DNA from: a virus
Lineage: Duplodnaviria > Caudoviricetes
Length of the DNA: 64,000 nucleotides
Virus record (IMG/VR): IMGVR_UViG_3300029286_001711
Direction: 5' to 3' (one strand)
In this document: positions 28,283 to 48,501 of the stretch, piece after piece
Position numbering within the stretch: the first letter of the stretch is position 1
How the letters are laid out: every line of letters begins with the position of its first letter
The notes under the pieces: model-generated
Databases searched by the model: none
What the model was told of the DNA's origin: nothing
Seen by the model: only the letters and a program-made list of their open reading frames with translations
Made by a program: the position numbers and the translations under genes

Positions 28283-28626
28283 GATATAAAGAAGGGGAGG
28301 AAGTTTCATTTAAAGTTTTATCACCAATTGATGAATCCGTCAATGGGAAAGTGGTGGTAGCAATTCCAGATGGAATACTTAAATGGGAAGAATATGGTGA
28401 ACCGTATTATTTAGTTGAATACCGTGAAGGTTGGGATTACCATTTAATGGTAATGGATGAATTAATAGGTTTAATAGGGGAAGATAATATATCTAAACTA
28501 GAAGATGAAAAAAAATATTGGTTTGTTCGTGAAAAAAACATTGTTGGTAAGTGGGATGGAAAACGGACAATACCAGAGTTAATGAATTTTAGGTTATTAA
28601 AATATAACTTTAAGAAAAATTCTTAA
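28279..28626 (+). CDS. hypothetical, SH3-like
   Basis: MRYKEGEEVSFK; ends PELMNFRLLKYNFKKNS. Confidence 0.6.
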   Translation: MRYKEGEEVSFKVLSPIDESVNGKVVVAIPDGILKWEEYGEPYYLVEYREGWDYHLMVMDELIGLIGEDNISKLEDEKKYWFVREKNIVGKWDGKRTIPELMNFRLLKYNFKKNS

Positions 28627-29573
28627 TCGTCTAACTTGTTCCAAACATCACCAGTATAGAGTTTCCAGACACCCCTTTCTAGGTGATTTAATACTGATTG
28701 TAAATTGTAAGTGGTACTTTGGTTTTTACCGTTATGAATCCACGATACACCAATAATCGGTCTTCCTTTAAAATCTTCTTTTATTGAATCTATTGTGTAA
28801 ACAATAAAACTACCCACAGAATCTTCATCAGCAAGTGTAAATTCTAGTCCTAATAAACTTTTTGGATCTTCCATTTTATTTTCATTAATATTTTTTCGGC
28901 CTATAAAATCTGACCATATAATATGTATTGGTTTACCTAGCTTATTACTTACTGATACACCTAAAGAATCATGATAAGGCCAACTAGCTGAACGTGTTAG
29001 TGTTTGATCTTCAATATTTTCAGGCCAGATAGATTGTATAGACCTTATCCCTTTAGTTTTTTCAATCTTCGTACCTTGTTCACCCCATCTAAATCCTTGT
29101 TTGAATAACCATTTTTGTATTTCAATGAAGTCTTCATCGGTATCAAAATCAATATGCCAAGGCTTACCTTTTAAACCGTCATACCCATTAATAACATCTT
29201 TTGCCCATTCAAAATCATCTTCAGATTCGTATAGTTTATCAAAAGCTTGATTAACATCTGGGATGACACTATAACCATCAAGCATTCTATATCCGTTACC
29301 TTCAAACCATTCAAGCCTATCATTTAAGTTATCATTATCTGTACCCTCACGATAATCGTATAGTGTGAACTGGGTTATATAGTTATCGTATATTCTAATA
29401 TATCCAATACTATCTTCAGTATTAACCATGATGTCTCTTATGTAATCATAACTTTTATAGTTTTTACGTTCATTACTATCAAACAATAAATCAATAATTT
29501 TAATACCCTCATTACCAGATAGTGGTGGGTTGAAAGTTAATATTGTATCTCTATCGAAAAAGGCAGATATCAT
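28623..29573 (-). CDS. linker-joined multidomain protein A (3 modules)
   Basis: ATG 29573 after TATTTAT; AFDKLYESEDDFEWAKD and NINEN junctions; ends WNKLDD. Confidence 0.8.
   Translation of the reverse strand: MISAFFDRDTILTFNPPLSGNEGIKIIDLLFDSNERKNYKSYDYIRDIMVNTEDSIGYIRIYDNYITQFTLYDYREGTDNDNLNDRLEWFEGNGYRMLDGYSVIPDVNQAFDKLYESEDDFEWAKDVINGYDGLKGKPWHIDFDTDEDFIEIQKWLFKQGFRWGEQGTKIEKTKGIRSIQSIWPENIEDQTLTRSASWPYHDSLGVSVSNKLGKPIHIIWSDFIGRKNINENKMEDPKSLLGLEFTLADEDSVGSFIVYTIDSIKEDFKGRPIIGVSWIHNGKNQSTTYNLQSVLNHLERGVWKLYTGDVWNKLDD
29198..29246 (-). repeat. ESED-EW linker copy
   Basis: Encodes AFDKLYESEDDFEWAK; 29203-29228 is identical to 43016-43041. Confidence 0.9.
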
Positions 29574-29583
29574 TAACAATAAA

Positions 29584-29606
29584 TATTCAGGAAAACGGAA
29601 AGGGGT
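29584..29606 (+). repeat. partial copy of the GC-rich element
   Basis: ATTCAGGAAAACGGAAAGGGGT, similar to 32421 ATTCAGGAAAAAGGGGGT. Confidence 0.5.
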
Positions 29607-29607
29607 G

Positions 29608-29868
29608 TTAGGTCATTTGAAACCTTTTGGAAAAAGAACATCTAGGTTCGATTTGGGGTTTACTAGATATTACGTAGAAAGAACCACATTCAATATGGTT
29701 ATAATTTAGATTGATACTATGTAATGATGAACCGTCAGAAGTTTGTGGTGGTGTAATCATATTAACTTTATTATACGTAAGGTTACCTTCACCTTCAACA
29801 TAAGATTCATCAGTGATTTCATAGGTACCACCAGACCAAAATATTATATCGCCAACACGTAATCTCAT
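29608..29868 (-). CDS. small SH3-like protein
   Basis: MRLRVGDIIF; ends EPRCSFSKRFQMT. Confidence 0.65.
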   Translation of the reverse strand: MRLRVGDIIFWSGGTYEITDESYVEGEGNLTYNKVNMITPPQTSDGSSLHSINLNYNHIECGSFYVISSKPQIEPRCSFSKRFQMT

Positions 29869-29870
29869 AA

Positions 29871-30116
29871 CTATACAAATTTGAATTTTAAAATATTACC
29901 AGCCCATTTAGTAGGGCTAACAGCACCGATGACATAGTCGTTCCACCTCTCAACTCTAAAACATTTTTGAGGAACCATTGGGTTTTCAGGAAATGTAAAC
30001 CAAACACGGTTACCAACACCTCTTTCTTCTATTCTAGTTACTAAAATTGTATTACCGTGAAATCTAGATGAAATAGATCCGTGATCATTTAAACGATATG
30101 TTTTACCTATCTCCAT
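29871..30116 (-). CDS. small SH3-like protein
   Basis: MEIGKTYRL; ends PTKWAGNILKFKFV. Confidence 0.65.
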   Translation of the reverse strand: MEIGKTYRLNDHGSISSRFHGNTILVTRIEERGVGNRVWFTFPENPMVPQKCFRVERWNDYVIGAVSPTKWAGNILKFKFV

Positions 30117-30328
30117 TATTTTATATTGAGAATATGTTTAATTAAATCAACATCAATTTCTTCGGGTCTGTGTTTAACCAACTCAACACGTTTAATTCCG
30201 ACACCTAATAAATCGTCAAAACGTCCAATAGACCAACGACCATTAACTAAGAAAGCATATAAATCATCAATCTCACCTTGTTCATTAACAATAACATAAG
30301 GTTCAACTGGTATCCACTCAAAACCCAT
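30116..30328 (-). CDS. hypothetical protein
   Basis: 70 aa, TAATG-coupled. Confidence 0.55.
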   Translation of the reverse strand: MGFEWIPVEPYVIVNEQGEIDDLYAFLVNGRWSIGRFDDLLGVGIKRVELVKHRPEEIDVDLIKHILNIK

Positions 30329-30477
30329 TTTAGGATATATTTGAAATCTTGTTCGGTAACCAAACGATATTCATTAAGGCGAATGCCATTTCTAACCTTC
30401 TGTAAAAACCCACCCAAAGTTAACCCCTTGGTTAATAAATGTTTGGGTATGGGCACCATAATCAATTCATCATTCAT
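30247..30477 (-). CDS. hypothetical protein
   Basis: ATG 30477 just after TATCTTTG (30483-90); overlaps the next ORF by about 80 nt. Confidence 0.4.
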   Translation of the reverse strand: MNDELIMVPIPKHLLTKGLTLGGFLQKVRNGIRLNEYRLVTEQDFKYILKWVLSGYQLNLMLLLMNKVRLMIYMLS

Positions 30478-30527
30478 ATATACAAAGATAAACAAATTAG
30501 AAGAAATAGATAAATAAAAATTAGGAA

Positions 30528-32402
30528 TTACTTGATAGGTTTAACACCTTGATTTGTCATAACAAAATGACCACCGTCTTTAACACGAATCATATGGTGA
30601 ACAGGTAAACTATCGGCGAAGTAGATATCTTCTGTCCATAACTTAGTATCATGATAACATTCATCACCATCATCTGGGATAACTAATATACCCTTTTTAT
30701 ATAGTTCATCAATACATTTTCGATCACCTTGGGGTTCTCCACTACGATCTTGACCAATTATACATTCCCTAACCCCAGGGATATTGAAATAATCCCATAA
30801 CGTGATGTTTTCTGGATAGTAATGTCCTCTTCTTAATACAACCCATAAATTTTGATCTACGTTAGATGGTGGGGTAATGTCTCTAGCCCATTCAAACTCG
30901 TCTTCTTCAGATTCTTTAAGATTTTCTTGGGGTGGGGTTATATATTTAACTCTTAATATACCATCAGTTCCAATTGTAGAGGAACTTACTTCGAAATAAT
31001 TACCAGTTGATGCGGTTCTCCAATTATTAGGTCTATCTGATAATGAAGCTAACCATTCTAATATTATATTGTCAATCTCACCCGTACCATTCCCACTATA
31101 GACATCTCTTTTATAGGTAACTCGGTCAACTTTAAATTCCTCACCAGTTAAATTAAACAATAATTTTTTACTATCCCTAACTTCACCGTATAAGGCAATC
31201 TCATCACCTTTTACTAATGCATCTTTTTCCCATAAATAACCTAAAGTGATTGGTGTGTTAATCAATTGTTTAGCCCATTCAAAATCTTCTTCAGATTCAT
31301 ATAGTTTACTAAAGGCATCATCCGAACTCATCTTAGAAAACTCAAATTGACCTCTACTTAAATAAACCCACCTACCAGTTTCATTTAATCTAATATGAAA
31401 TACTACACCAAAGGTACATTCACCAGGTTTTATTTCGGTAATCTTTTTATATATACCACTTCTACCACTAATATCTAAAATTGTTCCAATTTGTTCCCAT
31501 GATGGGACATAAACATTGTCACCAACATGAATTGTTCTTACACCTTCAGATTCAAATAATCTATTAAAATTATCAATAGTTGTTTTAATATTATCATCTT
31601 TAATAAAATAAAATCCCCTATTTAAATCACCAATGAAATCATCCCATTCTAAAGAACCCTTAGCACCCTCCCATTTAATCTTAAGTTCTTCACCGTCATC
31701 ATCAACTATAGTATAAAAAATTCCAGTCTCCTCATATTCTGTAGGGTGATAAAACTGTAACCCAAGAATATCTTGAGTTCTTAAGAAACTGTAATCATTT
31801 TCAGATTCATATAATTGTTTATACAGGGTATCAAAAATTTCAGAAGTGGTTGTACCGTTAACATAATCCCAACCATCATAAAGTTCCCAATAATTTGGTG
31901 TGTCTTTCATTTCATGTTCAGCATCATTACCAGTACCCCAAGTTACACTTTTCCTAGAATCAATAAAAATAGTATTTAATTTAATAGAGGAATAACTTCT
32001 ACTGTTGAGTTTATTACCACTACTCCATTTAATACCAGGAAACATTTCTGTCAACCTATCGTAAATCATTTCTTCCTGTTCAGAAGTGGGACGGGGATCG
32101 AATTTTAAAATTATACCCCTTTCTTTTACTGCGTCATTAGATTCATTAATTGTTTCTTTTATAACGGAAGAAATATCAACAGTAGGCAAATCAGTTATAA
32201 TCCAAGTATCATTTATATAATTAAGAAAAGTTTCCACATCATAGTCAGCCATATCTTCACCTTTATAACGATGTGGCCAGTCAATAAAGACATGACCATC
32301 ATAATATGAGTGAATAAGATAATCCCATTTACGTTCACCATCTCTCTTAAGACGAAAGTGTAAACCGATCAAATAGGGGATATCATCAATGGTGTATTTC
32401 AT
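30528..32402 (-). CDS. linker-joined multidomain protein B (6 modules)
   Basis: ATG 32402 after TATTTAT; junctions TINES, QLYESEND, RLFESEG, FSKLYESEEDFEWAK, LKESEEDEFEWAR. Confidence 0.85.
   Translation of the reverse strand: MKYTIDDIPYLIGLHFRLKRDGERKWDYLIHSYYDGHVFIDWPHRYKGEDMADYDVETFLNYINDTWIITDLPTVDISSVIKETINESNDAVKERGIILKFDPRPTSEQEEMIYDRLTEMFPGIKWSSGNKLNSRSYSSIKLNTIFIDSRKSVTWGTGNDAEHEMKDTPNYWELYDGWDYVNGTTTSEIFDTLYKQLYESENDYSFLRTQDILGLQFYHPTEYEETGIFYTIVDDDGEELKIKWEGAKGSLEWDDFIGDLNRGFYFIKDDNIKTTIDNFNRLFESEGVRTIHVGDNVYVPSWEQIGTILDISGRSGIYKKITEIKPGECTFGVVFHIRLNETGRWVYLSRGQFEFSKMSSDDAFSKLYESEEDFEWAKQLINTPITLGYLWEKDALVKGDEIALYGEVRDSKKLLFNLTGEEFKVDRVTYKRDVYSGNGTGEIDNIILEWLASLSDRPNNWRTASTGNYFEVSSSTIGTDGILRVKYITPPQENLKESEEDEFEWARDITPPSNVDQNLWVVLRRGHYYPENITLWDYFNIPGVRECIIGQDRSGEPQGDRKCIDELYKKGILVIPDDGDECYHDTKLWTEDIYFADSLPVHHMIRVKDGGHFVMTNQGVKPIK
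30885..30922 (-). repeat. ESED-EW linker copy
   Basis: NLKESEEDEFEWAR. Confidence 0.85.
31270..31318 (-). repeat. ESED-EW linker copy
   Basis: AFSKLYESEEDFEWAK; 25/26 nt match to 29203-29228. Confidence 0.9.
31785..31840 (-). repeat. degenerate ESED linker copy
   Basis: IFDTLYKQLYESENDYSF. Confidence 0.7.
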
Positions 32403-32425
32403 TAACAATAAATATCAGAAATTCA

Positions 32426-32490
32426 GGAAAAAGGGGGTCGGGGGAAAACGGTACGGGATCCGGCTATGCGAAAATCAATCCACATCATTG
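32426..32490 (+). repeat. GC-rich element, copy A
   Basis: AAGGGGGTCGGGGG...ACGGGATCCG...GAAA...ATCCACAT; inverted homologue at 37381-37447. Confidence 0.7.
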
Positions 32491-32511
32491 TATTCGTAGT
32501 GAACACACTAA

Positions 32512-32769
32512 TTAGGATAAGGAAAATTTCTTTAGATGTGTAATAGGTTCAATACCAACATAAGAGAAATCAATATGTTTAAGCACAGAACGACCATTAT
32601 GATACATAAAGAAAGGTTGTCCATCACCATTAAGGACGAGAGAACCATCCTGATTATAAACTTCCATCGTACTTCTTGTAAGGATTTTAAAAATCTTTCC
32701 CTTTAATTCTTCCTTCAAAGATGAAGGCCCACTTTTAAATCGATATGTCTTACCAATAAGAATATTCAT
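32512..32769 (-). CDS. small SH3-like protein
   Basis: IGKTYRFK; ends EPITHLKKFSLS. Confidence 0.65.
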   Translation of the reverse strand: MNILIGKTYRFKSGPSSLKEELKGKIFKILTRSTMEVYNQDGSLVLNGDGQPFFMYHNGRSVLKHIDFSYVGIEPITHLKKFSLS

Positions 32770-33057
32770 TTATTGTTTTTTTAAAAAGTTAAATATTTTA
32801 AATCGATAATTAGGGATTTTAGTCATAGCAATCCATTTACCTATTACACTTCCACATATATAAACAATAATAACAGTATAGTTACCATTTAAGAGACCCT
32901 CTATAGAAAAATAGGTTGTGGATATACTAACCAAATTAATAAAAACTGTATTTAAAAGTAATGGGATAATTTTATTCTCGTAAGTATATTTAATCTCATA
33001 AGTTTTAAAAATATTAAATAAGACCTGTGAGATGAATATGAAAATATAGGTTAACAT
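32770..33057 (-). CDS. small multi-TM membrane protein (DUF2179/DUF5698-like)
   Basis: Three hydrophobic helices, YICGSVIG. Confidence 0.55.
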   Translation of the reverse strand: MLTYIFIFISQVLFNIFKTYEIKYTYENKIIPLLLNTVFINLVSISTTYFSIEGLLNGNYTVIIVYICGSVIGKWIAMTKIPNYRFKIFNFLKKQ

Positions 33058-33063
33058 AATGAA

Positions 33064-33378
33064 TTAATGTCTAGGTACAACAATCTCAACCTTCTGCTTG
33101 GGATGAATGGTATGAACATACTTAATAAGATTATCCGTTTGAACCTCAAAACTAAGTTGGGTAATCGATAACTCTTGAATGGGTTTGGCATGTTTACCAT
33201 GAGAAGGATTTAACTCAAACTCGGAGTGGTCATAGACAGCAACAGATTTATTACTATAGTAAATGGTGTCGTTCTTGGTAGACCATTTATGGTATTCTTC
33301 ACAAGTTAATTTTCCCTTGTATACTGAACAAGAGACGATGGACATAATAAGTCCAATTGATATTACTATTTTTTTCAT
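33064..33378 (-). CDS. putative lipoprotein
   Basis: Likely start 33378: MKKIVISIGLIMSIVSC (lipobox-like Cys). Confidence 0.6.
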   Translation of the reverse strand: MKKIVISIGLIMSIVSCSVYKGKLTCEEYHKWSTKNDTIYYSNKSVAVYDHSEFELNPSHGKHAKPIQELSITQLSFEVQTDNLIKYVHTIHPKQKVEIVVPRH

Positions 33379-33379
33379 A

Positions 33380-33619
33380 TTATATAAATTTAAAAACCAA
33401 TTTGGAATCACCCTGAATAATATCAGGTGCTTCACCTTGAACATAGATATCCCAAAACCCCTTGGGTAGGGTACGAATACGTGAAGTACCTATAACTTGA
33501 TAATGTACATTGATACGACCAATACCCGTAAGGTAAAATTCCTTATTGGCAAGAAGACCTATCTTATGGTTAGGGTTTTCCACCCTCTCCCTGAACTTAT
33601 ATCGTTTACCTATCTCCAT
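33380..33619 (-). CDS. small SH3-like protein
   Basis: MEIGKRYKF; ends PDIIQGDSKLVFKFI. Confidence 0.65.
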   Translation of the reverse strand: MEIGKRYKFRERVENPNHKIGLLANKEFYLTGIGRINVHYQVIGTSRIRTLPKGFWDIYVQGEAPDIIQGDSKLVFKFI

Positions 33620-33622
33620 ATC

Positions 33623-33835
33623 TTAATGTGTACCGTTAGTTAATGAAACCCCATGACGAAATCCCATAATGAAATCCCTAATTTCTTCCTCATTCATTTT
33701 GGGGAGTATGGAACCTAAAATAAATCCGACCTCATTACCGACATCCGATAAATCACCATTCTGATAGGGAACCTTGGTTAACCCAGCACCTAACTTATTT
33801 AAGACCTCTTGAAACTCTATCTCACGTTCTTGCAT
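33623..33835 (-). CDS. hypothetical protein
   Basis: 70 aa; TATCTTTG at 33935-42 upstream. Confidence 0.6.
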   Translation of the reverse strand: MQEREIEFQEVLNKLGAGLTKVPYQNGDLSDVGNEVGFILGSILPKMNEEEIRDFIMGFRHGVSLTNGTH

Positions 33836-33959
33836 ATAGAAAAGACTATACTTAGTTTTAAATTCCTTATAGGTGGAATTGGATAACTCGAATGTTTTTT
33901 AGTCCCTTACATTCTGAACCATAAACCTTATATACAAAGATACGAAAATTATTTTATTG

Positions 33960-34180
33960 AGACCACTTTTTTGGGAAAAATTTTCCCGAAATTTTTTTTG
34001 GGTTTTTGACCCTATATAGAGTAGAACGCTATTTTCAGAAATTTTTACCCCAAAATTTTTTTACACTTTTGATCTGAAAACGTATCCGAACCCCCCTATT
34101 GGGGGCTCCCCACGTCCCGGCCAGGGGGAGGGGGGATATGCGCAGGGGGGAGGGGGCCATGGTATGGGGACCCTGCCAGC
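33960..34180. other. non-coding A/T-tract block followed by a GC/G-run island (G-quadruplex potential)
   Basis: GGGAAAA-A-TTTTCCC (33973-87), long A/T tracts, CCCCCC-TATT-GGGGG (34091-105), GGGGG-A-GGGGGG-ATATGCGCA-GGGGGG-A-GGGGG (34124-56). Confidence 0.75.
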
Positions 34181-34203
34181 CTGACATCTTGTCTGTATAT
34201 TTC

Positions 34204-34395
34204 TTACGTTCGCCTCAATAGTCTACTATTAATTGGTTTGGCCGATGTCCCAGTGAACTTCGGCTTATTGTACTGCTTCATCCTCTCCATAAACTCTTTC
34301 CTCTTCCTCTCTCTGTTGTCCATCACCTTCACGATGACAGCTGATACGATTAGGATTGTACCTACTGAGATTCCTACTATAACATTCGCTTCCAT
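34204..34395 (-). CDS. small single-TM protein
   Basis: VIVGISVGTILIVSAVIV plus basic tail; promoter TTTG/20 nt/TATCTTTG at 34412-43. Confidence 0.6.
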   Translation of the reverse strand: MEANVIVGISVGTILIVSAVIVKVMDNRERKRKEFMERMKQYNKPKFTGTSAKPINSRLLRRT

Positions 34396-34484
34396 ATTAT
34401 TATCTTTAATACAAAGATAAACAATTCATTTGATATAGACAAATCTATTTGCTATGTTGTTATGTCTATCTTAGTCGTTGGAGA

Positions 34485-34754
34485 TTACATAGTCGTTGAG
34501 AATGTTAATGGTCTTAAGTGTTTGATTGGTTCTATACTTTCTTCCCGTATAGATAGTACACCTCTCTCTAGCCAACCCTCTATGTCATCATCATAAACCC
34601 AGATGGTCTTACCTGATGTCTTACCCTTAAGGAAGTACTTGTGTCTAATGAATGGTACATCACCTAGTCTATAGACTCTATCAGCCACTTTGTCTATGAC
34701 GGTCATGTAGCTATCATGTCTCATGTTATTAAACCTATCTCCTATTTGATACAT
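34485..34754 (-). CDS. small SH3-like protein
   Basis: MYQIGDRF; ends EPIKHLRPLTFSTTM. Confidence 0.65.
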   Translation of the reverse strand: MYQIGDRFNNMRHDSYMTVIDKVADRVYRLGDVPFIRHKYFLKGKTSGKTIWVYDDDIEGWLERGVLSIREESIEPIKHLRPLTFSTTM

Positions 34755-34854
34755 TCTTCTTCCTGCTCTTCTTAATCTCGTTAACTAGTATGGTGATTGA
34801 TGTGACAGCCAATCCTATACCAAAACAAAACCCCATAACATCTTTTATAATCAT
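34735..34854 (-). CDS. 39 aa single-TM peptide
   Basis: My translation MIIKDVMGFCFGIGLAVTSITILVNEIKKSRKKNVSNRR; TATCTTTA just upstream. Confidence 0.45.
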   Translation of the reverse strand: MIIKDVMGFCFGIGLAVTSITILVNEIKKSRKKNVSNRR

Positions 34855-34997
34855 ACGATAAAGATAACCATTTTATTTGGTAGTGTCAAAAGTATTATGT
34901 ACATTTGTATTGTTGATGGCCATCAGCGTGAGAGTACCAGAGTCGATTGGAGACAGCGCCAAGTGTGCCTTATATTTTCCTATTGCGGAAAATATTA

Positions 34998-35029
34998 TTT
35001 GTTTTTTAATTATATTATCCGTATCTTTG
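34998..35029 (+). promoter_or_regulatory. Bacteroidota primary-sigma-type promoter
   Basis: TTTG (34998-35001), 20 nt spacer, TATCTTTG (35022-29). Confidence 0.7.
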
Positions 35030-35127
35030 TATTATATGGGAATGACATTTAGAGTCGATGATAAACAATCGTTTTAATGTTTTTTACACTTTGTTATACA
35101 CAGTATTAATTTATAAAATATAAACAA

Positions 35128-35295
35128 ATGGAATCAGTAAAAGAATTTATCACAGAAACAAAAACAGAAATAAAAAACGGTGTTAAATACACCACACATT
35201 TTGTTAATAGACCTATTAGACAAGGCGACACACAAGGTGGTTCTGTTGGTACGTGTATTAACGGAATAAACAAAACAACGGAAATCATAAATTAA
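35128..35295 (+). CDS. 55 aa hypothetical protein
   Basis: My translation MESVKEFITETKTEIKNGVKYTTHFVNRPIRQGDTQGG...; A-rich leader, downstream of the 35022 promoter. Confidence 0.5.
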   Translation: MESVKEFITETKTEIKNGVKYTTHFVNRPIRQGDTQGGSVGTCINGINKTTEIIN

Positions 35296-35535
35296 TATTG
35301 TGTATAACTACTAGATTAACGCAATAGACATAACAAATAAAAAAAATAACAAGGTGTATCAATGCCTACATATAAAAAAGTGAAGAAGAAGTATGTCAGC
35401 GTATTTAGGTGTTGTAGTTTCATTGACTTGGCTGGTTTTAATACTTTCCTACCAACTAGAAAACGTACACTTGTTATAAAAAATTAACCCATAAAAATAG
35501 TTGATAGTATAAAATAAAATTCTTATATTTGTAGT

Positions 35536-35634
35536 ATGGAAATATTAAGTTTAGAAACAGGAGTATTAGTAATGGTGGGCGTTTGTATCACCCTATTAGT
35601 ATGGCTATTACGCAGAGTCGCTAAGATGAGTTAA
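35536..35634 (+). CDS. 32 aa single-TM peptide
   Basis: MEILSLETGVLVMVGVCITLLVWLLRRVAKMS; TTG/20 nt/TATATTTG (35501-31) directly upstream. Confidence 0.5.
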   Translation: MEILSLETGVLVMVGVCITLLVWLLRRVAKMS

Positions 35635-35932
35635 ACATGGGTTACGGTACACCCTATTTTCCCACTCTCTGTCCCTTCTCTCCAGGGAATTCCCCATTCG
35701 CTGCCGTAAAATTTGAGTCATAACTCGCAAGAGGGTCAGTTCCCTTTACGGTTTCCTTACATAATCAACCATTTCCTATTGTCTTTTCTATACGTGGCAA
35801 TCTCTTCATATACACAATCCACCACTTTTCCCCATTATTTACCACCGAGTATTCCAAGATCGAGAAATTTATACTAATTGGCAGCGGGCGTTGCCTATTG
35901 TATGGATCTACATCTTCCACACATTTACTGAA

Positions 35933-36154
35933 TTAAGATCGTAATAGAGTAGGGTTTATGGTACGTAGTAATGTCGGTTCAAAACATTCTTCCATATTTT
36001 CCTTCCATATCCAGAGTATTCTGTTCCCCCTTTCCAATATATCAACACACTCTCGTTCCCAGGCAATATATCTATATACCTCATAGACTTTTCCTATACG
36101 GAAATTCTTTGTATAATCAATCTTAGGAATCTTCTTACAAATTACTCTTTCCAT
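35933..36154 (-). CDS. small SH3-like protein
   Basis: FRIGKVYEV; ends EPTLLRTINPTLLRS. Confidence 0.55.
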   Translation of the reverse strand: MERVICKKIPKIDYTKNFRIGKVYEVYRYIAWERECVDILERGNRILWIWKENMEECFEPTLLRTINPTLLRS

Positions 36155-36528
36155 TACTTCATGTTCTTTGTTACCATCTCCAATGTATATAAGTTCTCAT
36201 TGTCCTTTTTGGTTCTGTTCTTTTTATTCTTAAGTAATTCAATCTCTTTCATTAATTCCAACTTTTGATTACTTACCTTTACTTCAGGTTTCTCAATGAA
36301 TGAATGTTCTATTGTCTTTACTGGTCTGTCTACATAGACTATCTTTTCCTTATAGACAATTTTCTCTACAGGGATTTCCTTATTTACTATCTTATCTTTG
36401 TAGACAATTTTATCCTTATAGATAATCTTATTCTTACCGATTGGTTTACTCTCTGCTGATAGAGATTTCATTACTAAGAATTGTATTACGTTGAGAACTA
36501 TTGAACCTATTATTATCATTTCTATCAT
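36154..36528 (-). CDS. membrane-anchored protein with KIVYK repeats
   Basis: N-terminal TM, then KIIYKDKIVYKDKIVNKEIPVEKIVYKEKIVY; TATCTTTG at 36533-40. Confidence 0.65.
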   Translation of the reverse strand: MIEMIIIGSIVLNVIQFLVMKSLSAESKPIGKNKIIYKDKIVYKDKIVNKEIPVEKIVYKEKIVYVDRPVKTIEHSFIEKPEVKVSNQKLELMKEIELLKNKKNRTKKDNENLYTLEMVTKNMK

Positions 36529-36546
36529 AATACAAAGATAGGGAAT

Positions 36547-36771
36547 TTATTCCTCATTTCCTATTCTATAATCTATTCTACACCAGTAGTATTTCTCCAA
36601 TGTACTAACATTAAATCCCCTTTCCAATATCATCTTACCAACCAGACTCCATCCTTGTTCTCTCTCTATATAATTTAGTATTGTATTTATAAACTCCATA
36701 GTTACATGTTCATATATTTTAGACCTTTGTTCTTTCTTACTAAAACTATGTCTCTTTAATTTGAATTCCAT
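36547..36771 (-). CDS. hypothetical protein (MEFKLKRH start)
   Basis: Likely ATG 36771 within the junction motif. Confidence 0.55.
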   Translation of the reverse strand: MEFKLKRHSFSKKEQRSKIYEHVTMEFINTILNYIEREQGWSLVGKMILERGFNVSTLEKYYWCRIDYRIGNEE

Positions 36772-36773
36772 TT

Positions 36774-36980
36774 CTAATTGTATTCTACTACACATCTTAC
36801 TTTCTCATTATAGAGTGCTGGACATTCTCCTGTATAAGTTTCTATTCTAAAATCTATTACATTATATCCTCTTACTATCATGGTCTTAATCCAATCCAAA
36901 GATTCTCTATGTGTTATATCTTCACATGTAACAGAATAAATTTTTCTTATACTATGTTTCTTCAGATTCTTTTTAATCAT
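36774..36980 (-). CDS. hypothetical protein
   Basis: 68 aa, bounded by junction motifs. Confidence 0.55.
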   Translation of the reverse strand: MIKKNLKKHSIRKIYSVTCEDITHRESLDWIKTMIVRGYNVIDFRIETYTGECPALYNEKVRCVVEYN

Positions 36981-37264
36981 TTCCTATTGTAATTTTCTAA
37001 AAACTTATTTGATGTCATATCTACGTATTCTTCCACTGTCATGAATTTGATATCTTTTATCTCTTCATTTTGTATTACCCTTTCTACTGGTTGACAACAC
37101 TCATAACAGTCTGTCTTTATTGAATAATCTACTACTGCATCATATCCACAATGATGTCCTATATCAGTTAGGAAATCTTTCTTACAGTGTGGACATTCTG
37201 TTTGTACACAAATTAATACAATACCTTTACCACGTTTTAGTGCCTCTTGTAAATTATCTTCCAT
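36977..37264 (-). CDS. Zn-ribbon-like protein
   Basis: CPHC...CYEC. Confidence 0.6.
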   Translation of the reverse strand: MEDNLQEALKRGKGIVLICVQTECPHCKKDFLTDIGHHCGYDAVVDYSIKTDCYECCQPVERVIQNEEIKDIKFMTVEEYVDMTSNKFLENYNRK

Positions 37265-37267
37265 TTC

Positions 37268-37366
37268 TTATCTTATTCTTAATCTCTTTATGTATGGTAA
37301 TGGTTCCATAACTTCTTTAACCCATTTCTTATAGAAACTTCCTTTGGTTCTACAAATATAATGAAT
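37268..37366 (-). pseudogene. start-less fragment homologous to 37822..38019
   Basis: IHYICRTKGSFYKKWVKEVMEPLPYIKRLRIR* versus FVYYCEMDGRFYDRWIKEDIKPIQYIEKFKLQ*. Confidence 0.5.
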
Positions 37367-37380
37367 TTATCTCTTATTAT

Positions 37381-37447
37381 CCATTATGTGGATAATATTT
37401 CCGATCAACGGATCCCGTCCACAATCCCCGACCCCTTTCTTTCCGAC
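37381..37447 (-). repeat. GC-rich element, copy B (inverted), containing TTATCCACA
   Basis: Minus strand AAAGGGGTCGGGG...ACGGGATCCG...GAAA...TTATCCACAT. Confidence 0.7.
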
Positions 37448-37452
37448 CGTTC

Positions 37453-37530
37453 CTATTGTAATTCTAATGGATTAATACTTAGTAGTAAGTCCATCATTTC
37501 TTCCTGTGTTAATAATATTGCTGTTCCCAT
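37453..37530 (-). CDS. 25 aa micro-ORF bounded by junction motifs
   Basis: MGTAILLTQEEMMDLLLSINPLELQ*. Confidence 0.4.
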   Translation of the reverse strand: MGTAILLTQEEMMDLLLSINPLELQ

Positions 37531-37533
37531 TTC

Positions 37534-37818
37534 TTATTCATAATGATAGTTCTTTCTTTGTGTTGTAATCAAATATTTGTCCAGGAATATTTGTTCTATT
37601 TCAGGTATTGGGTTATTATCACCTAAGAACCCATCTTTACCCCATTGTCCATTTGAGTAATAAGCCACGAGTTCTTCTTCTTCATCACCTAATAGGTACC
37701 ATTTGATTATATGGAAATCTTTATTCATTATACACTCATCTCTCACATATTCTACCCCATCATATTCCACTACATGTGTGAAATCTTCTCTATATCTTGG
37801 TTCTCTTATTATCTTCAT
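37534..37818 (-). CDS. hypothetical protein
   Basis: 94 aa, junction-bounded. Confidence 0.6.
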   Translation of the reverse strand: MKIIREPRYREDFTHVVEYDGVEYVRDECIMNKDFHIIKWYLLGDEEEELVAYYSNGQWGKDGFLGDNNPIPEIEQIFLDKYLITTQRKNYHYE

Positions 37819-37821
37819 TTC

Positions 37822-38019
37822 TTATTGTAATTTAAATTTTTCTATATATTGTATTGGTTTAATATCTTCCTTAATCCATCTGTCATAAAAACGGCCATCC
37901 ATTTCACAGTAATAAACAAATGTTTCCCATCCATAACCACAAAAGACCGTTTCCCATCCGTTCATACTTTCTACCCATTGTCTATATTTACGAAACCCCT
38001 CTCTATATCTTCCTTCCAT
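37822..38019 (-). CDS. hypothetical protein with C-terminal tag
   Basis: Ends KPIQYIEKFKLQ. Confidence 0.6.
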   Translation of the reverse strand: MEGRYREGFRKYRQWVESMNGWETVFCGYGWETFVYYCEMDGRFYDRWIKEDIKPIQYIEKFKLQ

Positions 38020-38022
38020 TTC

Positions 38023-38259
38023 TTATTGTAGTTTTACTTTTCTTAACATTCTTGGTATACAGCAGATTTCCCATTCTATAAATTCCTGATATGTTATTGG
38101 CCATATATGTTCATATTTCACATCACCTATTTCAAAATATCTTAGATAGTCTCTGAGTGAGATTAGTGTCTCTAATTGATTTATTCCCATGAACTTTGAT
38201 TCCAATGTTATATCGTATTTATTTAGTAAGAATTTCCTGTATTCCTTCTCCTTATCCAT
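38023..38259 (-). CDS. hypothetical protein with C-terminal tag
   Basis: Ends IPRMLRKVKLQ. Confidence 0.6.
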   Translation of the reverse strand: MDKEKEYRKFLLNKYDITLESKFMGINQLETLISLRDYLRYFEIGDVKYEHIWPITYQEFIEWEICCIPRMLRKVKLQ

Positions 38260-38428: not shown

Positions 38429-38431
38429 TTC

Positions 38432-38806: not shown

Positions 38807-38809
38807 ATC

Positions 38810-39118: not shown

Positions 39119-39121
39119 TTC

Positions 39122-42225: not shown

Positions 42226-43611
42226 TTATTCTATAACAATAATATCTACCATATCTTCATTAATCCAATAAGGTAGGTCTAAAACATTATCAGTTAAACA
42301 CTCAACAAGTTGAGCACTCAGAACATCCTCATCGATATCCATACCAAAATTAAAACCAGCTTCACAATCAGAACCACTTCTCACCATCTGTTTAATTTTA
42401 CCTATTCTAAATACTTGTTTAAACCACCATTCAACATTACCATTAAATGAACACAAATCTAAGGATTCTTTAAAATAATCACTACCATTTGATTTTGGGA
42501 TAAGTTTAAATTTTAGTTTATCAAGATTTTTAGGGTTACTTTGTTTAAAGACATCCCAATAGTTTTCAACCCCAGAAACCAAATCTCTGGCCCATTCCAA
42601 TTCATCTTCTTGTTCTCTAATTTTACTAACTCTCTTCCTAGCTGGTCTATACCCGTCAGCATTAATTATAAAATGTTTACCATCTGATTTTCTCACCAGA
42701 TGTGAAATTCTTTCATCGTATTCATTAGTCTCCGTGTTATTGATTAGGTAACAAATATCACCGTTTTCTGGTGTCCCTAATGATGGTACTTGTTGATGTA
42801 AAAATAATGTCCCAACATCACCTTTAATGCCCTCACCCATTTCATATCTACGTGATAAATTATGATAATCTTCACTATCCCACCAATGTTTTCCATATTT
42901 CTGATTAAACTCTTCCATACCTGGAATTTTTACATTTAACATAAATTCTGTATAGGTCGGATAATAAGCCGCACTTCTGGTAACCACAACTTCTGGAAAT
43001 TTAGTTAGTTCCTTAGCCCATTCAAAATCATCTTCAGATTCATTTAGATTACTCTCCACAACTTTCCAAGCACCACTATTCAAAATCTTTAAAAGTTTGC
43101 CTATATCAAAAGGTGTACCTTTTGATGGGTATGAAGCCGGTAAGTTTGCTGGTAAAATATATACAACCCTATCTGTAACTTTTGTTATAACAGCTAATAT
43201 TGGTGAACCACCTGGTATTTTTGATGGTATTGAAAATTTCTGACCAACTTTAAGAAGATTGGTACTATCTAAGTCTTTAACCCAAGATAAATCATCTTCA
43301 GATTCATATAACTGGCCAAAGAAATCGGTATTTTGAATATCAGGTGGAATTAGAGTGAACCAATCTTCATAGTTTCGACCAACCACATCTTTTTGTACAG
43401 TAAATCTAGCAGTATGTTGACCACGATTTCTAACCCCTCCAATACTAATGATATCTTCTCCACGATTACCACCCCTAGATTCAAAGTTGGTAACTTCAAC
43501 ATAATCACCCACCTTTGGCCCAACACCTTCCGTATGGCAATACAAAAAATCTCCGACCTTGGGTACCGGCTTTAATGATTCTTTAATTATTTTACGGATA
43601 GAGTTTCTCAC
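42226..43611 (-). CDS. linker-joined multidomain protein C (4 modules)
   Basis: Likely GTG 43611 after TATTTAT; IRKIIKES leader; QLYESEDDLSWVK, LNESEDDFEWAK, IREQEDELEWAR. Confidence 0.85.
   Translation of the reverse strand: MRNSIRKIIKESLKPVPKVGDFLYCHTEGVGPKVGDYVEVTNFESRGGNRGEDIISIGGVRNRGQHTARFTVQKDVVGRNYEDWFTLIPPDIQNTDFFGQLYESEDDLSWVKDLDSTNLLKVGQKFSIPSKIPGGSPILAVITKVTDRVVYILPANLPASYPSKGTPFDIGKLLKILNSGAWKVVESNLNESEDDFEWAKELTKFPEVVVTRSAAYYPTYTEFMLNVKIPGMEEFNQKYGKHWWDSEDYHNLSRRYEMGEGIKGDVGTLFLHQQVPSLGTPENGDICYLINNTETNEYDERISHLVRKSDGKHFIINADGYRPARKRVSKIREQEDELEWARDLVSGVENYWDVFKQSNPKNLDKLKFKLIPKSNGSDYFKESLDLCSFNGNVEWWFKQVFRIGKIKQMVRSGSDCEAGFNFGMDIDEDVLSAQLVECLTDNVLDLPYWINEDMVDIIVIE
42587..42622 (-). 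repeat. ESED-EW linker copy
   Basis: KIREQEDELEWAR. Confidence 0.8.
43011..43050 (-). repeat. ESED-EW linker copy
   Basis: NLNESEDDFEWAKE; 26 nt identical to 29203-28. Confidence 0.9.
43275..43323 (-). repeat. ESED-EW linker copy
   Basis: FFGQLYESEDDLSWVKD. Confidence 0.85.
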
Positions 43612-45455: not shown

Positions 45456-46205
45456 TTAGAAAGGGTAGTCTGACTTATTAAAACTATTAACAATTAAATC
45501 ATTATCAGTGGGGAATTTATGTGGGTTTACCTCTATACAATCTTTTCCTCTTCCTATATTAATAGCTTCCCAACCACTAGGTCTTTCCCCTGGGTTTTTT
45601 AACCAAGAAAAATGAAAGCCATCATCGTAACGGTTTTCAACCTCAAAAGGTTCACTATTTAAAATTAATAAAATATCACCATCATCACCCTTGATTTCAC
45701 CACTTAGGGTGATTTGGTCGCCTTTCTCTAAATGTTTCCATACAGATTGTAATGTTATTTCTGATTCTAATGATTGTTTAGCCCAATCTAGTTCATCTTC
45801 GGATTCATATAATTTATTAAAAGCATCTTCAGTTGAGGGTGTGTTATGGAACTTACTAATGAAATCTCTATAAGGTATAAAAATGTAGTCTTGATTTATA
45901 AAACCATTTGGGTTTCCCCAAAAGATATGAGTACCTTGAGTGATATCAGTATCATAATAACCAGCACCAATACCTAAATCTCTACCCCTCATTAAGTAGT
46001 CTTCTATCACAATATCAATATCCGCATCAGTCCAATCCCTATTACTCTCAAGAGGTGAAGGAACCCCATTTACCCTGAAAAAATCAAGAACCATTTTAAT
46101 ATCTTCTTTTTTTGCTGATGGAGTAAAAATCACCATCTTTCCTAAAATAGGGTTAGTAGAGTCGACATATTCTTCCCTTAATATTTTACGGATGGAGTTT
46201 CTCAC
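45456..46205 (-). CDS. linker-joined multidomain protein D (2 modules)
   Basis: Likely GTG 46205; IRKILREE leader; AFNKLYESEDELDWAKQ. Confidence 0.8.
   Translation of the reverse strand: MRNSIRKILREEYVDSTNPILGKMVIFTPSAKKEDIKMVLDFFRVNGVPSPLESNRDWTDADIDIVIEDYLMRGRDLGIGAGYYDTDITQGTHIFWGNPNGFINQDYIFIPYRDFISKFHNTPSTEDAFNKLYESEDELDWAKQSLESEITLQSVWKHLEKGDQITLSGEIKGDDGDILLILNSEPFEVENRYDDGFHFSWLKNPGERPSGWEAINIGRGKDCIEVNPHKFPTDNDLIVNSFNKSDYPF
45777..45826 (-). repeat. ESED-EW linker copy
   Basis: AFNKLYESEDELDWAK. Confidence 0.88.
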
Positions 46206-47358: not shown

Positions 47359-48501
47359 TTACTTAAGGGTATCAATAGTAACTATATAAAAATCCTTTAA
47401 AATTTGACTATCTTTAGCGAAATAAGAGTGAGCGGTTGTTACATTTAATAGTTTATAACCTTTATAGGTGTTACCTTCGATATCCATCGTCGTTCTTTCC
47501 CCTATTTCATATATAAACTTACCGTTTGATCTTCTAACAATCAAACCTGGTCTTAAATCTTCAGGACTTAACTTAATCAATGAATGACCACCCATTATTC
47601 TATTTAATTGGGACCTATCTATACCCTTTGGTAATCCCAAATCTTTAACCCAATCAAACTCGTCACCCTCTTGTTCGGTTAAATTATCAAAATTCATCAC
47701 TTGTTGATCCTTACCACTATAAATGTTAATAAATAAATCAACAGGAAACACAAATTCAAAAGTGTCGATTGAATTTTCTTCACAATCATCCCAACCACCC
47801 CACTGTAATACACCATCATGAGTTCCAAAATACATAACTATTCTACCTTTACTGGAATTCATTGCATTTTGGAACCAATCCTCATCAGGTGTTACTGATC
47901 CCGAATATTGTGATAGATAAGACATTAAAATATTTTTTAAATCATTAAATCTAAATACCGACTCAGGTTTAACTCTCCCATGTTTAACTCTCCTGTGTTT
48001 GTTTAAACTATCTCTACAAAATGTGATGGCAAATTCTGATGGTAATGTTTTAATTGAGTCTCTAGCCCACTCAAAATCATCTTCTTGTTCATATAGTTTA
48101 TCGAAAATATCTTCGACATTGGGTGTGTTTAGTAATTCACGACCGTCATAGAAGGCATCAAAGGTTTTCGAGACTGACCTTTCATTTTTATACCAGTTAA
48201 TAGTATCTTTTTTGGTTTGTAATTCATCGTCTGGGTTTTGCCAAGAATCTAAATCCCCACTAGGAGTGGTTTGAATCCACAGTAATCTCTGATCTTCACC
48301 CCAACGGTCATCCATTAAAGGTCTTGTAACTATATAACCATGTTTAAGGTTTTTAAGAAGATTTTCGAGTTGGTATATTTCATGTGCCTCAAGAGGTGGG
48401 TCAAAATAATAGACAGCATTAGGTTGTAGTGTACCTCTAGAGGCGAATTTCTCCAGAGCATTTCCTTTTACCTTTTTCCCGTCTTTTTTCTTTTTGGCCA
48501 T
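47359..48501 (-). CDS. linker-joined multidomain protein E (3 modules)
   Basis: TATTTAT upstream; IFDKLYEQEDDFEWARD and NFDNLTEQEGDEFDWVKD. Confidence 0.85.
   Translation of the reverse strand: MAKKKKDGKKVKGNALEKFASRGTLQPNAVYYFDPPLEAHEIYQLENLLKNLKHGYIVTRPLMDDRWGEDQRLLWIQTTPSGDLDSWQNPDDELQTKKDTINWYKNERSVSKTFDAFYDGRELLNTPNVEDIFDKLYEQEDDFEWARDSIKTLPSEFAITFCRDSLNKHRRVKHGRVKPESVFRFNDLKNILMSYLSQYSGSVTPDEDWFQNAMNSSKGRIVMYFGTHDGVLQWGGWDDCEENSIDTFEFVFPVDLFINIYSGKDQQVMNFDNLTEQEGDEFDWVKDLGLPKGIDRSQLNRIMGGHSLIKLSPEDLRPGLIVRRSNGKFIYEIGERTTMDIEGNTYKGYKLLNVTTAHSYFAKDSQILKDFYIVTIDTLK
47643..47694 (-). repeat. ESED-EW linker copy
   Basis: FDNLTEQEGDEFDWVK. Confidence 0.85.
48061..48110 (-). repeat. ESED-EW linker copy
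   Basis: IFDKLYEQEDDFEWAR. Confidence 0.9.

What the first reader, a model, noticed from the sequence alone, without database searches (positions are those of the whole stretch)
30528..32402. Direct evidence of module swapping between non-adjacent linker genes
Seen by eye alignment. (i) Module 5 of gene B (ITLGYLW..LVKGDEIALYGEV...WL....RPNNW) matches the last module of gene D at 45456 (ITLQSVW..LEKGDQITLSGEI...WL....RPSGW). (ii) The last module of B (VVLRRGHYYP...DGDECY...DGGHFVM...GVKP) matches module 3 of gene C at 42226 (VVTRSAAYYP...NGDICY...DGKHFII...GYRP). (iii) An F(D/N/T)P module is first in A, D and E but second in B. (iv) An (L/I)GL(E/Q/H)F module occurs twice in B and last in A. 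So the same modules sit in different positions and with different neighbours. The mechanism (homologous recombination at linkers) is inference.
Basis: seen in the sequence. Interest (0 to 1): 0.75.

Follow-up and report, generated by a model that had tools for sequence, protein, structure and literature searches.

The report
Domain shuffling at conserved phage linkers
An uncultured lake phage related to T4 builds several proteins from small interchangeable domains joined by one conserved linker, and sister phages show whole domains gained, lost or exchanged exactly at that linker; the process is a known kind of phage evolution, seen here inside genes instead of between them.

Summary
Gene B (30528-32402, minus strand) is six small domains on a string.

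**Module matches, linkers excluded:**
- B5 matches the last module of D: BLASTP 1e-9, disjoint-profile HHalign 99.3%.
- B6 matches module 3 of C: BLASTP 2e-7, HHalign 98.9%.
- The GLxF module (B1, B3, A3) is one family: 94-96%.
- The 'FxP' claim holds only weakly for A1~B2. It is not shown for D1 or E1.

**Age of the pairs.** They share only 23-30% identity and no DNA similarity outside the linkers. They are old paralogues, not recent swaps between these genes.

**Direct evidence comes from sister phages in lake metagenomes:**
- The A orthologue has one extra module, flanked by 29/30-nt direct linker repeats.
- The D orthologue lacks D1 exactly between the leader and the linker.
- The E orthologue lacks E1.
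- The B orthologue has a replaced middle, with similarity resuming at the linker.
- One gene (P0008) is a mosaic of two others, with the crossover inside the linker.
- By my reading of these alignments, 11 of 12 breakpoints lie within 10 residues of a linker site.

**Mechanism and function.** The most likely mechanism is in-frame recombination between linker-coding repeats, an intragenic counterpart of PeSL shuffling in T4-like phages. What the domains do, and whether the head protease cuts the linker, remains unproven.

This is a new variant of a known kind.

The parts
30528..32402 (-). Gene B, 624 aa: six modules in the order G-P-G-B4-T-U (B1 to B6) on a string
   Evidence: ORF. An identical protein, P0001, is in the public collection. 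Module map.
32121..32402 (-). B1, a GLxF (G family) module; in relatives this subtype is always N-terminal
   Evidence: HHalign with A3 and B3 at 94-96%. AF2 gives pLDDT above 90 for residues 1-72, then a low-confidence tail. It heads nine different downstream architectures.
31842..32120 (-). B2, an 'FxP' (P family) module
   Evidence: The P family has 24 members and occurs up to four times in one protein. The link to A1 is borderline.
31572..31769 (-). B3, the second GLxF (G family) module
   Evidence: The same module stands alone as proteins of 85-100 aa (P0016, P0026, P0031-33).
31335..31541 (-). B4, an SH3-like module with no relatives found
   Evidence: Weak, sub-threshold Pfam MSSS SH3 hit. 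No homologue other than itself.
31269..31334 (-). Canonical linker between B4 and B5 (tail ..F.KLYE, then SEEDFEWAK)
   Evidence: Motif scan. pLDDT about 50. DNA similarity to sister gene P0002 resumes here, at gene nt 1081.
30930..31268 (-). B5, a T family module, paralogue of D2
   Evidence: AF2 pLDDT above 90. Weak match to SH3/Tudor-like barrels, Z about 6.
30882..30929 (-). Linker between B5 and B6 (..LKE, then SEEDEFEWAR)
   Evidence: pLDDT below 50 over model residues 139-155.
30531..30881 (-). B6, a U family module, paralogue of C3
   Evidence: AF2 pLDDT above 90. Weak SH3-like match, Z about 5.
45459..45776 (-). D2, a T family module, last module of gene D
   Evidence: A sister phage carries it alone behind the leader (P0034, 93.5% nt identity).
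45816..46169 (-). D1 with its ..KLYE tail (D aa 19-136), absent from the sister phage
   Evidence: Clean in-frame indel between leader ..KIL(K/R)E and SEDELDWAK.
42640..43011 (-). C3, a U family module, third module of gene C
   Evidence: It sits in a 100/100-supported C3-type clade whose four members have four different architectures.
28626..28859 (-). A3, a GLxF (G family) module, last module of gene A
29199..29258 (-). The single canonical linker of gene A; the site where a sister phage carries one extra module
   Evidence: 264-nt insertion in L003 flanked by 29/30-nt direct linker repeats.
48124..48501 (-). E1, first module of gene E, absent from sister protein P0050

Best explanation
Genes A, B, C, D and E, and about 50 relatives in lake metagenomes, belong to one combinatorial family. 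Each protein is a string of small, independently folding domains of about 65-125 aa, mostly beta-rich.

The domains are joined by one flexible linker of about 20 aa. Its first half is the C-terminal tail of the upstream domain (h-D-x-F-x-x-[LI]-x-E). Its second half is the N-terminal cap of the downstream domain ([SQ]-E-D-D-[FL]-x-W-[AV]-[KR]-D). That same cap directly follows the short basic N-terminal leader on stand-alone versions of the domains.

The linker is conserved as DNA, always on the same strand and in the same reading frame. It therefore acts as a portable patch of homology. Recombination between two linker copies, or between a leader and a linker, deletes, duplicates, inserts or exchanges whole domains and always leaves an open frame.

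What is shown:
- homology of the modules;
- their many different contexts;
- flexible linkers;
- sister-phage indels and a mosaic whose junctions lie in the linker.

What is inferred:
- that homologous recombination, not selection alone, places the junctions there;
- that the B/D and B/C module pairs in this genome are old products of the same process.
For: Homology. B5~D2, B6~C3 and A3~B1~B3 are significant with linkers removed and with non-overlapping profiles.

Combinatorics. HMMER against 1.84 billion proteins found 40 relatives.
- The T, U and G modules occur alone, first, in the middle and last.
- The T module follows a leader, B4, P, G, S or D1.

Beads on a string. AF2 of B aa 359-626 gives two domains at pLDDT above 90, both linkers below 50, and pTM 0.47. 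In the B1 model confidence drops after residue 72.

Junctions in sister phages:
- The A orthologue (L003, 87% nt identity) has a 264-nt extra module bracketed by linker repeats identical at 29 of 30 nt; the window has one copy.
- The D orthologue (L001) lacks aa 19-136, exactly from the leader E to the linker E.
- The E orthologue P0050 lacks E1 and keeps ..KLYE|QEDEFEWAK.
- P0049 lacks only the nine-residue cap of linker 2.
- B against P0002: B1 72% nt identity, the middle unalignable, then 78% from the first codons of the linker onward.
- P0008 matches P0010 at 87.7% over nt 1-534 and P0006 at 83.3% over nt 494-831. The 41-nt overlap is the linker.
- By my count from these alignments, 11 of 12 breakpoints lie within 10 residues of an [LI]xE site; binomial 3.5e-8 at 17% coverage.

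DNA-level substrate:
- Linkers of different genes share up to 93% identity over a 30-nt core, a 26-nt exact run, and 81-82% over 57 nt.
- Non-orthologous linkers of the sister phage match the window over 41-76 nt at 79-93%.
- Codon identity at shared residues is 0.71 against 0.55 expected. Ser is TCT in 6 of 7 Ser-bearing linkers, against 29% TCT usage.
Against: - Selection would also concentrate surviving indel junctions at domain boundaries, so the clustering of breakpoints does not by itself prove a recombination mechanism.
- The linker homology is short (30-57 nt) for efficient homologous recombination.
- The left junction of the E1 deletion is not in a linker. It lies after residue 5, with only a few shared bases.
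- The excess of identical codons is modest, and the pairs counted are not independent.
- Several sister contigs are short metagenome assemblies (1.3-6.6 kb). The P0008 mosaic rests on one 1.27-kb contig and could in principle be an assembly chimera.
- Within this genome the paralogous modules are only 23-30% identical, so no recent event can be read from the window alone.
Confidence: 0.72

Rival explanations
1. Selection filter only. Indels and exchanges arise by illegitimate recombination at random places. Only those that respect domain boundaries survive. The linker is conserved purely for a protein-level role, and its DNA similarity is a by-product.
For: The left junction of the E1 deletion lies outside any linker, with only a few shared bases. 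The codon-identity excess is modest (0.71 against 0.55). AT-rich codon bias already makes acidic linkers look alike as DNA.
Against: The extra module in L003 is flanked by 29/30-nt direct repeats and the window keeps exactly one copy, the classic footprint of repeat-mediated recombination. The D1 junction and the P0008 crossover both fall inside stretches shared by both partners. All observed products are in frame.
Confidence: 0.18
2. Fusion and fission of neighbouring leader-bearing genes is the main route. Multi-module genes arise when the stop codon between tandem stand-alone genes is lost and the next gene's leader decays into a linker. Single modules arise by the reverse. Recombination at linkers is secondary.
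For: - The linker cap equals the sequence that follows the leader in stand-alone modules (P0012, P0023, P0034, P0036, gene 41814-42224, L005).
- The linker tail ..KLYE resembles the leader end ..KILKE.
- Gene 41814-42224 starts 1 nt after the stop codon of C and opens with leader plus cap.
- G modules that end a protein keep the tail.
Against: This route explains where linkers came from. It does not explain the mosaic P0008, the replaced middle of B/P0002, or an indel bounded by two full linkers. It fits alongside the best explanation and does not replace it.
Confidence: 0.07
3. Artefact. The similarities are chance or compositional, or the variant architectures are metagenome mis-assemblies at the repeated linker.
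For: Linkers are repeats that could confuse short-k assembly. Some variants rest on a single short contig.
Against: - Module similarities survive removal of the linker, shuffling controls and disjoint profiles.
- P0002 was read on 11 contigs from several samples.
- Identical contigs from other lakes span the B5/B6 and C2/C3/C4 junctions.
- Exact linker repeats of 26-30 nt are shorter than the final k of L002's assembler: its record name, k141_428689, indicates k = 141.
Confidence: 0.03

Closest known systems
PeSL-mediated modular shuffling in T4-like phages (Arbiol et al. 2010, PMC2839356; Comeau et al. 2014, PMC4122927)
   Same: - Both involve a short conserved DNA motif repeated many times in a hyperplastic accessory region of a T4-type genome.
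- Sister phages differ by cassettes flanked by two motif copies in one genome and a single copy in the other (ORF192 of RB49 against phi1).
- This matches the A against L003 case here.
- In both cases exchanges are targeted to 'acceptable' places.
   Different: PeSLs are intergenic promoter-plus-terminator cassettes of about 100 bp that move whole genes. Here the motif is a translated linker of 30-57 nt inside genes. The unit moved is a protein domain, and the reading frame is preserved. Mini-circles were not looked for.
Internal proteins of T-even phages and their capsid targeting sequence (Repoila et al. 1994, as cited in PMC12373910 and PMC3012670; Mullaney and Black 1996, as cited in PMC5694885)
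   Same: Both are sets of highly diverse small accessory proteins that share only a short conserved N-terminal leader ending in a Glu. T4-type prohead proteases cut C-terminal to Glu. Genes C, D and 41814-42224 start with such a leader, and every linker carries [LI]-x-E.
   Different: T4 internal proteins are single-domain proteins with one N-terminal tag. Here the tag-like site is repeated internally between domains. Genes A, B and E have no N-terminal leader. Packaging and cleavage are untested here.
Conserved-motif recombination in T-even tail-fibre adhesins (gp38 glycine-rich motifs, gp37 His boxes; Trojet et al. 2011, PMC3157838; Tetart et al. 1998, cited there)
   Same: Conserved short motifs inside one protein separate variable segments, and exchange between motifs swaps the segments.
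   Different: The glycine-rich motifs are proposed to form the structural core of one domain, and the variable parts are loops. Here the conserved parts are flexible linkers (pLDDT below 50), and the variable parts are whole autonomous domains that also exist as separate genes.
Multiply processed head and ejection proteins of giant phages (SPN3US, phiKZ; PMC5694885)
   Same: Proteins are cut at several x-E sites by a T4-related prohead protease. This is a precedent for the polyprotein reading of the linker.
   Different: Those sites are short degenerate motifs (A-x-E, S-x-E), not a conserved 20-residue linker. No domain shuffling at the sites has been described there.

Membership tests
PeSL-type shuffling cassette (T4-like hyperplastic regions) | A short conserved DNA motif present in many copies within an accessory region | tested here: met
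   There are 9-11 linker copies between 28.6 and 48.5 kb, all on the minus strand. The 30-nt core is up to 93% identical, and 57 nt are 63-82% identical.
PeSL-type shuffling cassette (T4-like hyperplastic regions) | The motif is an intergenic early promoter plus a stem-loop terminator | tested here: not met
   The motif lies inside ORFs and is translated. This locus therefore works like a PeSL but is not one. A separate terminator-like stem-loop does precede D.
PeSL-type shuffling cassette (T4-like hyperplastic regions) | Sister genomes differ by a cassette flanked by two motif copies in one genome and a single copy in the other | tested here: met
   A against L003: a 264-nt module between 29/30-nt linker repeats. 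D against L001: the same pattern between leader and linker.
T4-type capsid-targeted internal proteins | An N-terminal leader of about 10 residues ending in [LI]-x-E | tested here: inconclusive
   Present on C, D and 41814-42224, and on stand-alone relatives. Absent from A, B and E, whose only such sites are internal.
T4-type capsid-targeted internal proteins | Cleavage by the prohead protease and presence in the virion | not testable with these tools
   No virion proteome exists, the phage is uncultured, and the whole genome is not held for this window.
T-even adhesin motif-mediated swapping (GRM / His box) | Conserved motifs form the structural core, and the variable segments are loops of one domain | tested here: not met
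   The linkers are low-confidence and flexible. The variable parts are separate domains at pLDDT above 90.
SH3/Tudor-like small beta-barrel fold (modules B1, B5, B6) | Structural match to solved SH3/Tudor/KOW/FeoA barrels well above background | tested here: inconclusive
   The best Z is 5.0-6.3 over 55-78 aligned residues, with many SH3, Tudor and FeoA rows. Foldseek gives E at or above 0.017. This is within the tool's stated background range.
   A1~B2 50-93%; B2~E1 18-48%; B2~D1 2-20%; D1~E1 about 2%.

The most novel reading that the evidence does not exclude
The linker is a dual-purpose element. As protein, it would be a head-protease cut site and packaging tag repeated between domains, so each gene would be a polyprotein that delivers several small injected host-targeting domains. 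As DNA, it would be an in-frame recombination cassette boundary. Together these would let the phage population reassort its injected cargo domain by domain. That would be a natural combinatorial library built on one motif.
Probability: 0.3. Interest if true: 0.85.

Novelty: new variant of a known kind. Interest (0 to 1): 0.62.

Why it matters
Modular shuffling is a central idea in phage evolution. In T4-like phages it is documented at the level of whole genes (PeSLs) and of loops within adhesins.

Here the same logic operates on autonomous protein domains inside genes. One translated linker keeps every recombinant in frame, and the intermediate states are still visible in co-occurring lake phages.

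This gives a concrete, testable natural example of how multidomain proteins are assembled and taken apart. It also suggests a design principle for engineered domain libraries.

If the linker is also a head-protease site, the system would extend the T4 internal-protein concept from single tagged proteins to shuffled polyproteins.

Tried and rejected
**Searches that found nothing**
- INPHARED phages: megablast of 28000-48600 and tblastn of B, no match.
- IMG/VR with B as the query: nothing confirmed.
- Exact linker DNA in IMG/VR: no match.
- A degenerate linker pattern found a single contig, L005, carrying a stand-alone protein with leader plus cap.
- Pfam and PHROGs on all six linker genes: nothing above threshold.
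- ESM Atlas by features: no usable hit. ESM Atlas by shape: TM below 0.5.
- Foldseek against PDB: no hit at E 0.001 or better for either model.
- The whole genome is not held.
- Full-text search for the linker motif strings: none among the ten papers listed, whose only hits were the unrelated word 'middleware'. This is not proof that the motif is undescribed.

**Population variants**
- Contigs of four lake runs were laid on 28600-48550. No joint at a linker was listed.
- One record joins 44654 to 30933, near linker 5, with 36 foreign letters between. It is probably from another phage.
- All four runs are contigs, which drop rare variants, so this says nothing against recombination.

**Expression timing**
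- No T4 late-promoter TATAAATA lies directly upstream of A to E.
- The sigma-70 scan is at background.
- No conclusion is drawn.

**Rejected ideas**
- Alternative genetic code for the ORF-poor stretch at 33.9-36 kb: not pursued. Rfam found nothing there.
- The idea that B5/D2 or B6/C3 are recent copies is rejected. There is no DNA similarity outside the linkers, and each sits in a different subclade.
Full report
**What is at the coordinates**

The finding spans one minus-strand ORF, 30528-32402. It is 624 aa from the ATG; the ORF lister begins two codons earlier at a TTG. An identical protein is in the public collection (P0001).

The gene lies in a long run of small minus-strand genes. These sit among accessory genes: DNA ligase, glycosyltransferase, metallophosphatase and a ClpB-like ATPase. 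Earlier notes of this scan describe the genome as an uncultured giant T4-like phage. The longest contig carrying gene A is 212,321 bp. The DNA occurs in lake-water metagenomes.

A motif scan finds nine copies of an acidic, tryptophan-containing linker, of the type ..F.KLYE-SEDDFEWAK. All are on the minus strand, in five genes:
- A: 28623-29579
- B: 30528-32402
- C: 42226-43647
- D: 45456-46223
- E: 47359-48501

A sixth gene, 41814-42224, has the same motif directly after a short leader. None of the six has a Pfam or PHROG family above threshold.

**Checking the four sub-claims**

I cut the six proteins into 19 modules and removed the linkers.

Pairwise test. All 171 pairs were scored by Smith-Waterman against 300 shuffles each. 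Only two pairs stand out:
- B5/D2: z = 14, Gumbel p 9e-9.
- B6/C3: z = 10, p 1.5e-6.

BLASTP on the linker-free segments gives 30% identity at E 1e-9 for B5/D2 and 23% identity at E 2e-7 for B6/C3.

Profile test. For the weaker claims I built profiles from relatives. To avoid circularity, each homologous segment was assigned to one seed only. HHalign then gives:

| Pair | Probability | E-value |
|---|---|---|
| B5~D2 | 99.3% | 1e-20 |
| B6~C3 | 98.9% | 1e-17 |
| A3~B1 | 95.9% | 6e-9 |
| A3~B3 | 94.0% | 1.4e-7 |
| B1~B3 | 93.7% | 1.9e-7 |

A 30-sequence alignment of this GLxF family has invariant G and F and nearly invariant Y, I, W and L. Claims (i), (ii) and (iv) therefore hold.

Claim (iii) does not hold as stated. 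A1~B2 is borderline: 50% over 17 columns with disjoint profiles, and 92.6% over 88 columns with iterated, partly circular profiles. D1 and E1 are not significantly similar to B2, to A1 or to each other. The four share a strand-FxP(P)-helix opening, which may reflect a common fold, but this is not shown.

**These are old paralogues, not recent swaps**

B5/D2 and B6/C3 share no DNA similarity outside the linkers.

In module trees, B5 groups with its orthologue P0002 and with leader-bearing stand-alone proteins. D2 groups with P0034 and other C-terminal copies ending in ..YPF. C3 sits in a 100/100-supported clade apart from B6. The window alone therefore shows that shuffling happened at some time. 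It does not show that B exchanged modules with C or D.

**Relatives show a combinatorial family**

HMMER of B against 1.84 billion representatives returned 40 proteins of 74-1039 aa. Searches with A and E added 17 more.

Mapping module profiles onto them gives about 40 different orders.
- The G module stands alone (P0014, P0016, P0026, P0031-33) and also occurs first, in the middle and last.
- The T module stands alone behind a leader (P0012, P0023, P0034, P0036). It also follows B4, P, G, S or D1.
- The U module stands alone (P0038). It also follows T, G, C2 or P.
- The P module occurs up to four times in one protein.
- Further shared modules exist among the unassigned stretches.

**Anatomy of the linker**

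Sixty-odd linkers from these proteins share [LI]-x-E, then S or Q, an acidic run, [FL]-x-W-[AV] and usually [KR]-D.

The part after the Glu directly follows the basic 11-residue leader in stand-alone modules and in gene 41814-42224. The part before the Glu persists as the C-terminal tail of terminal or stand-alone G and S modules. So the linker is a composite: the tail of one module plus the cap of the next.

AF2 models give:
- B aa 359-626: two domains at pLDDT above 90, both linkers below about 50, pTM 0.47.
- B1: confident to residue 72, then low.

Fold searches give only weak matches, all to SH3/Tudor/KOW/FeoA-type barrels. Z is 5-6.3, within the tool's background range, and Foldseek E is at or above 0.017. 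No function can be read from this.

**Direct evidence from sister phages**

Contigs that encode close relatives were fetched and aligned as DNA.

(a) L003, the orthologue of A at 87% nt identity, carries 264 extra nucleotides. That is exactly one module plus one linker, bracketed by two linker copies identical at 29 of 30 nt. The window has one copy.

(b) L001, the orthologue of D at 85-94% identity, goes from the leader ..KILKE straight into SEDELDWAK. D aa 19-136, which is D1 plus its ..KLYE tail, are missing. The junction lies in bases shared by leader and linker.

(c) L004, from the same sample, encodes E without E1. It retains MAKKK-NKLYE|QEDEFEWAK, which itself looks like a leader.

(d) P0049 lacks only the nine-residue cap of E's second linker.

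(e) L002 is syntenic with the window over 24.6-29.9 kb at 84% identity. Its B orthologue P0002 was read on 11 contigs.
- It matches B at 72% over B1.
- It is unalignable through the middle: two P modules in place of P-G-B4.
- It matches again at 78% from gene nt 1081, the first codons of the linker, to the end.

(f) P0008 matches P0010 at 87.7% over nt 1-534 and P0006 at 83.3% over nt 494-831. The 41-nt overlap is the linker. This is a mosaic with its crossover in the linker.

By my count from these alignments, 11 of 12 breakpoints lie within 10 residues of an [LI]xE site. Such zones cover at most 17% of these proteins. The binomial probability is 3.5e-8. The exception is the left end of the E1 deletion.

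**Is the linker a recombination substrate?**

- Within the window, linkers of different genes share up to 93% identity over a 30-nt core, a 26-nt exact run (A against C), and 81-82% over 57 nt.
- Non-orthologous linkers of L002 hit window linkers over 41-76 nt at 79-93%, including 28 nt at 100%.
- At identical residues the same codon is used in 71% of pairs, against 55% expected from codon usage. Ser is TCT in 6 of 7 Ser-bearing linkers, against 29% TCT usage.
- All copies are on one strand and in one frame relative to the motif, so any crossover is in frame.

This is the intragenic counterpart of PeSL shuffling in T4-like phages. There, a cassette flanked by two motif copies in one phage corresponds to a single copy in its sister (PMC2839356; PMC4122927). 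It also recalls motif-mediated swapping in T-even adhesins (PMC3157838).

Selection for intact domains would also enrich junctions at linkers. I therefore rate the recombination mechanism as likely, not proven.

**What the system is for**

This remains open.

Points in favour of a polyprotein cargo:
- Every linker and leader carries [LI]-x-E.
- T4-type prohead proteases cut C-terminal to Glu and trim the capsid-targeting leaders of the diverse internal proteins, which are injected anti-restriction factors (PMC5694885; PMC3012670; PMC12373910).

Points against:
- A, B and E have no N-terminal leader.
- No T4 late promoter precedes these genes.
- Nothing here tests cleavage or packaging.

I give this reading about 0.3.

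**Controls against artefact**

- Identical contigs from independent lake samples span 30499-31316 (B6, linker, B5) and 42484-43085 (C3 with both of its linkers).
- P0002 and the A orthologues occur on several contigs.
- The P0008 mosaic and the L001 variant each rest on one short contig. This is the main weakness.

**Verdict**

Shuffling with linkers as breakpoints is real. 'Direct' exchange between these particular genes is not shown.
- Classification: a new variant of a known kind.

Noticed in passing
window 46166-46255 and 43577-43658 (minus strand); L001:1147-1233: Genes C and D share about 85% DNA identity over some 83-90 nt covering the upstream region and the leader. Upstream of D and L001, a terminator-like stem-loop with a T-run ends right at the ATG; C shares the T-run and leader but not the stem. 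The true starts may be the in-frame GTG, which would give the 11-residue leader (M)RNSIRKI(L/I).E. This looks like a PeSL-type gene-level cassette boundary.
   Followed up: partly
window 43938-45418 against L001:1577-1696: In the sister contig, the D-like gene is followed directly by the homologue of 43653-43925. The two genes 44561-45418 and 43938-44570 are absent there, and an extra 191-aa gene sits upstream of the D-like gene.
   Followed up: partly
window 29871-30505 against L002:5817-9400: Two small genes of 81 and 70 aa between A and B are missing from the sister phage. The sister instead has a second B1-headed gene (P0010, 600 aa) directly upstream of its B orthologue.
   Followed up: partly
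window 33900-36000: This is an ORF-poor, relatively GC-rich stretch (0.36 against about 0.32). It is 85.6% identical over 1064 nt to the sister phage (L002:2485-3522). Rfam finds nothing there. It is conserved but unexplained.
   Followed up: partly
window 29871-30116, 32512-32769, 33380-33619, 39794-40297: Several small stand-alone genes open with the same M-(E/K)-I-G-K-(T/R)-Y-(R/K) strand, typical of SH3-like barrels. They may be free-standing members of the same domain pool, without leader or linker.
   Followed up: no
window 57279-57377, 55990-56010, 59761-60597 (+): Three further ORFs carry the basic leader ..[IL][KR][KR]I[IL]KE. The plus-strand one is followed by EGENFDW, a linker-like cap, about 20 residues into the protein.
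   Followed up: no
window 42222-42228: The stop codon of C (TAA) is followed after 1 nt by the ATG of gene 41814-42224, which begins with leader plus cap. The C4-type module before it is always C-terminal in relatives (P0003, P0010, and the 549-aa gene of L007).
   Followed up: partly
window 60627-63767 and 352-2877: One 1046-aa protein has GEVED and PKD domains and a CHU_C type IX secretion sorting domain. There is also a full ClpB/ClpC-like AAA+ ATPase. The secretion signal hints at a Bacteroidota host.
   Followed up: no
L005:8457-8888 (IMG/VR contig): A 143-aa stand-alone protein with the same leader and cap (M-K-D-L-I-R-K-I-L-K-E-S-E-D-D-F-E-W-A-K) lies on a viral contig. About 1 kb away are ORFs that, from memory and unchecked by any tool, resemble a T4-type major capsid protein. 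A TROVE-like gene is also nearby.
   Followed up: no
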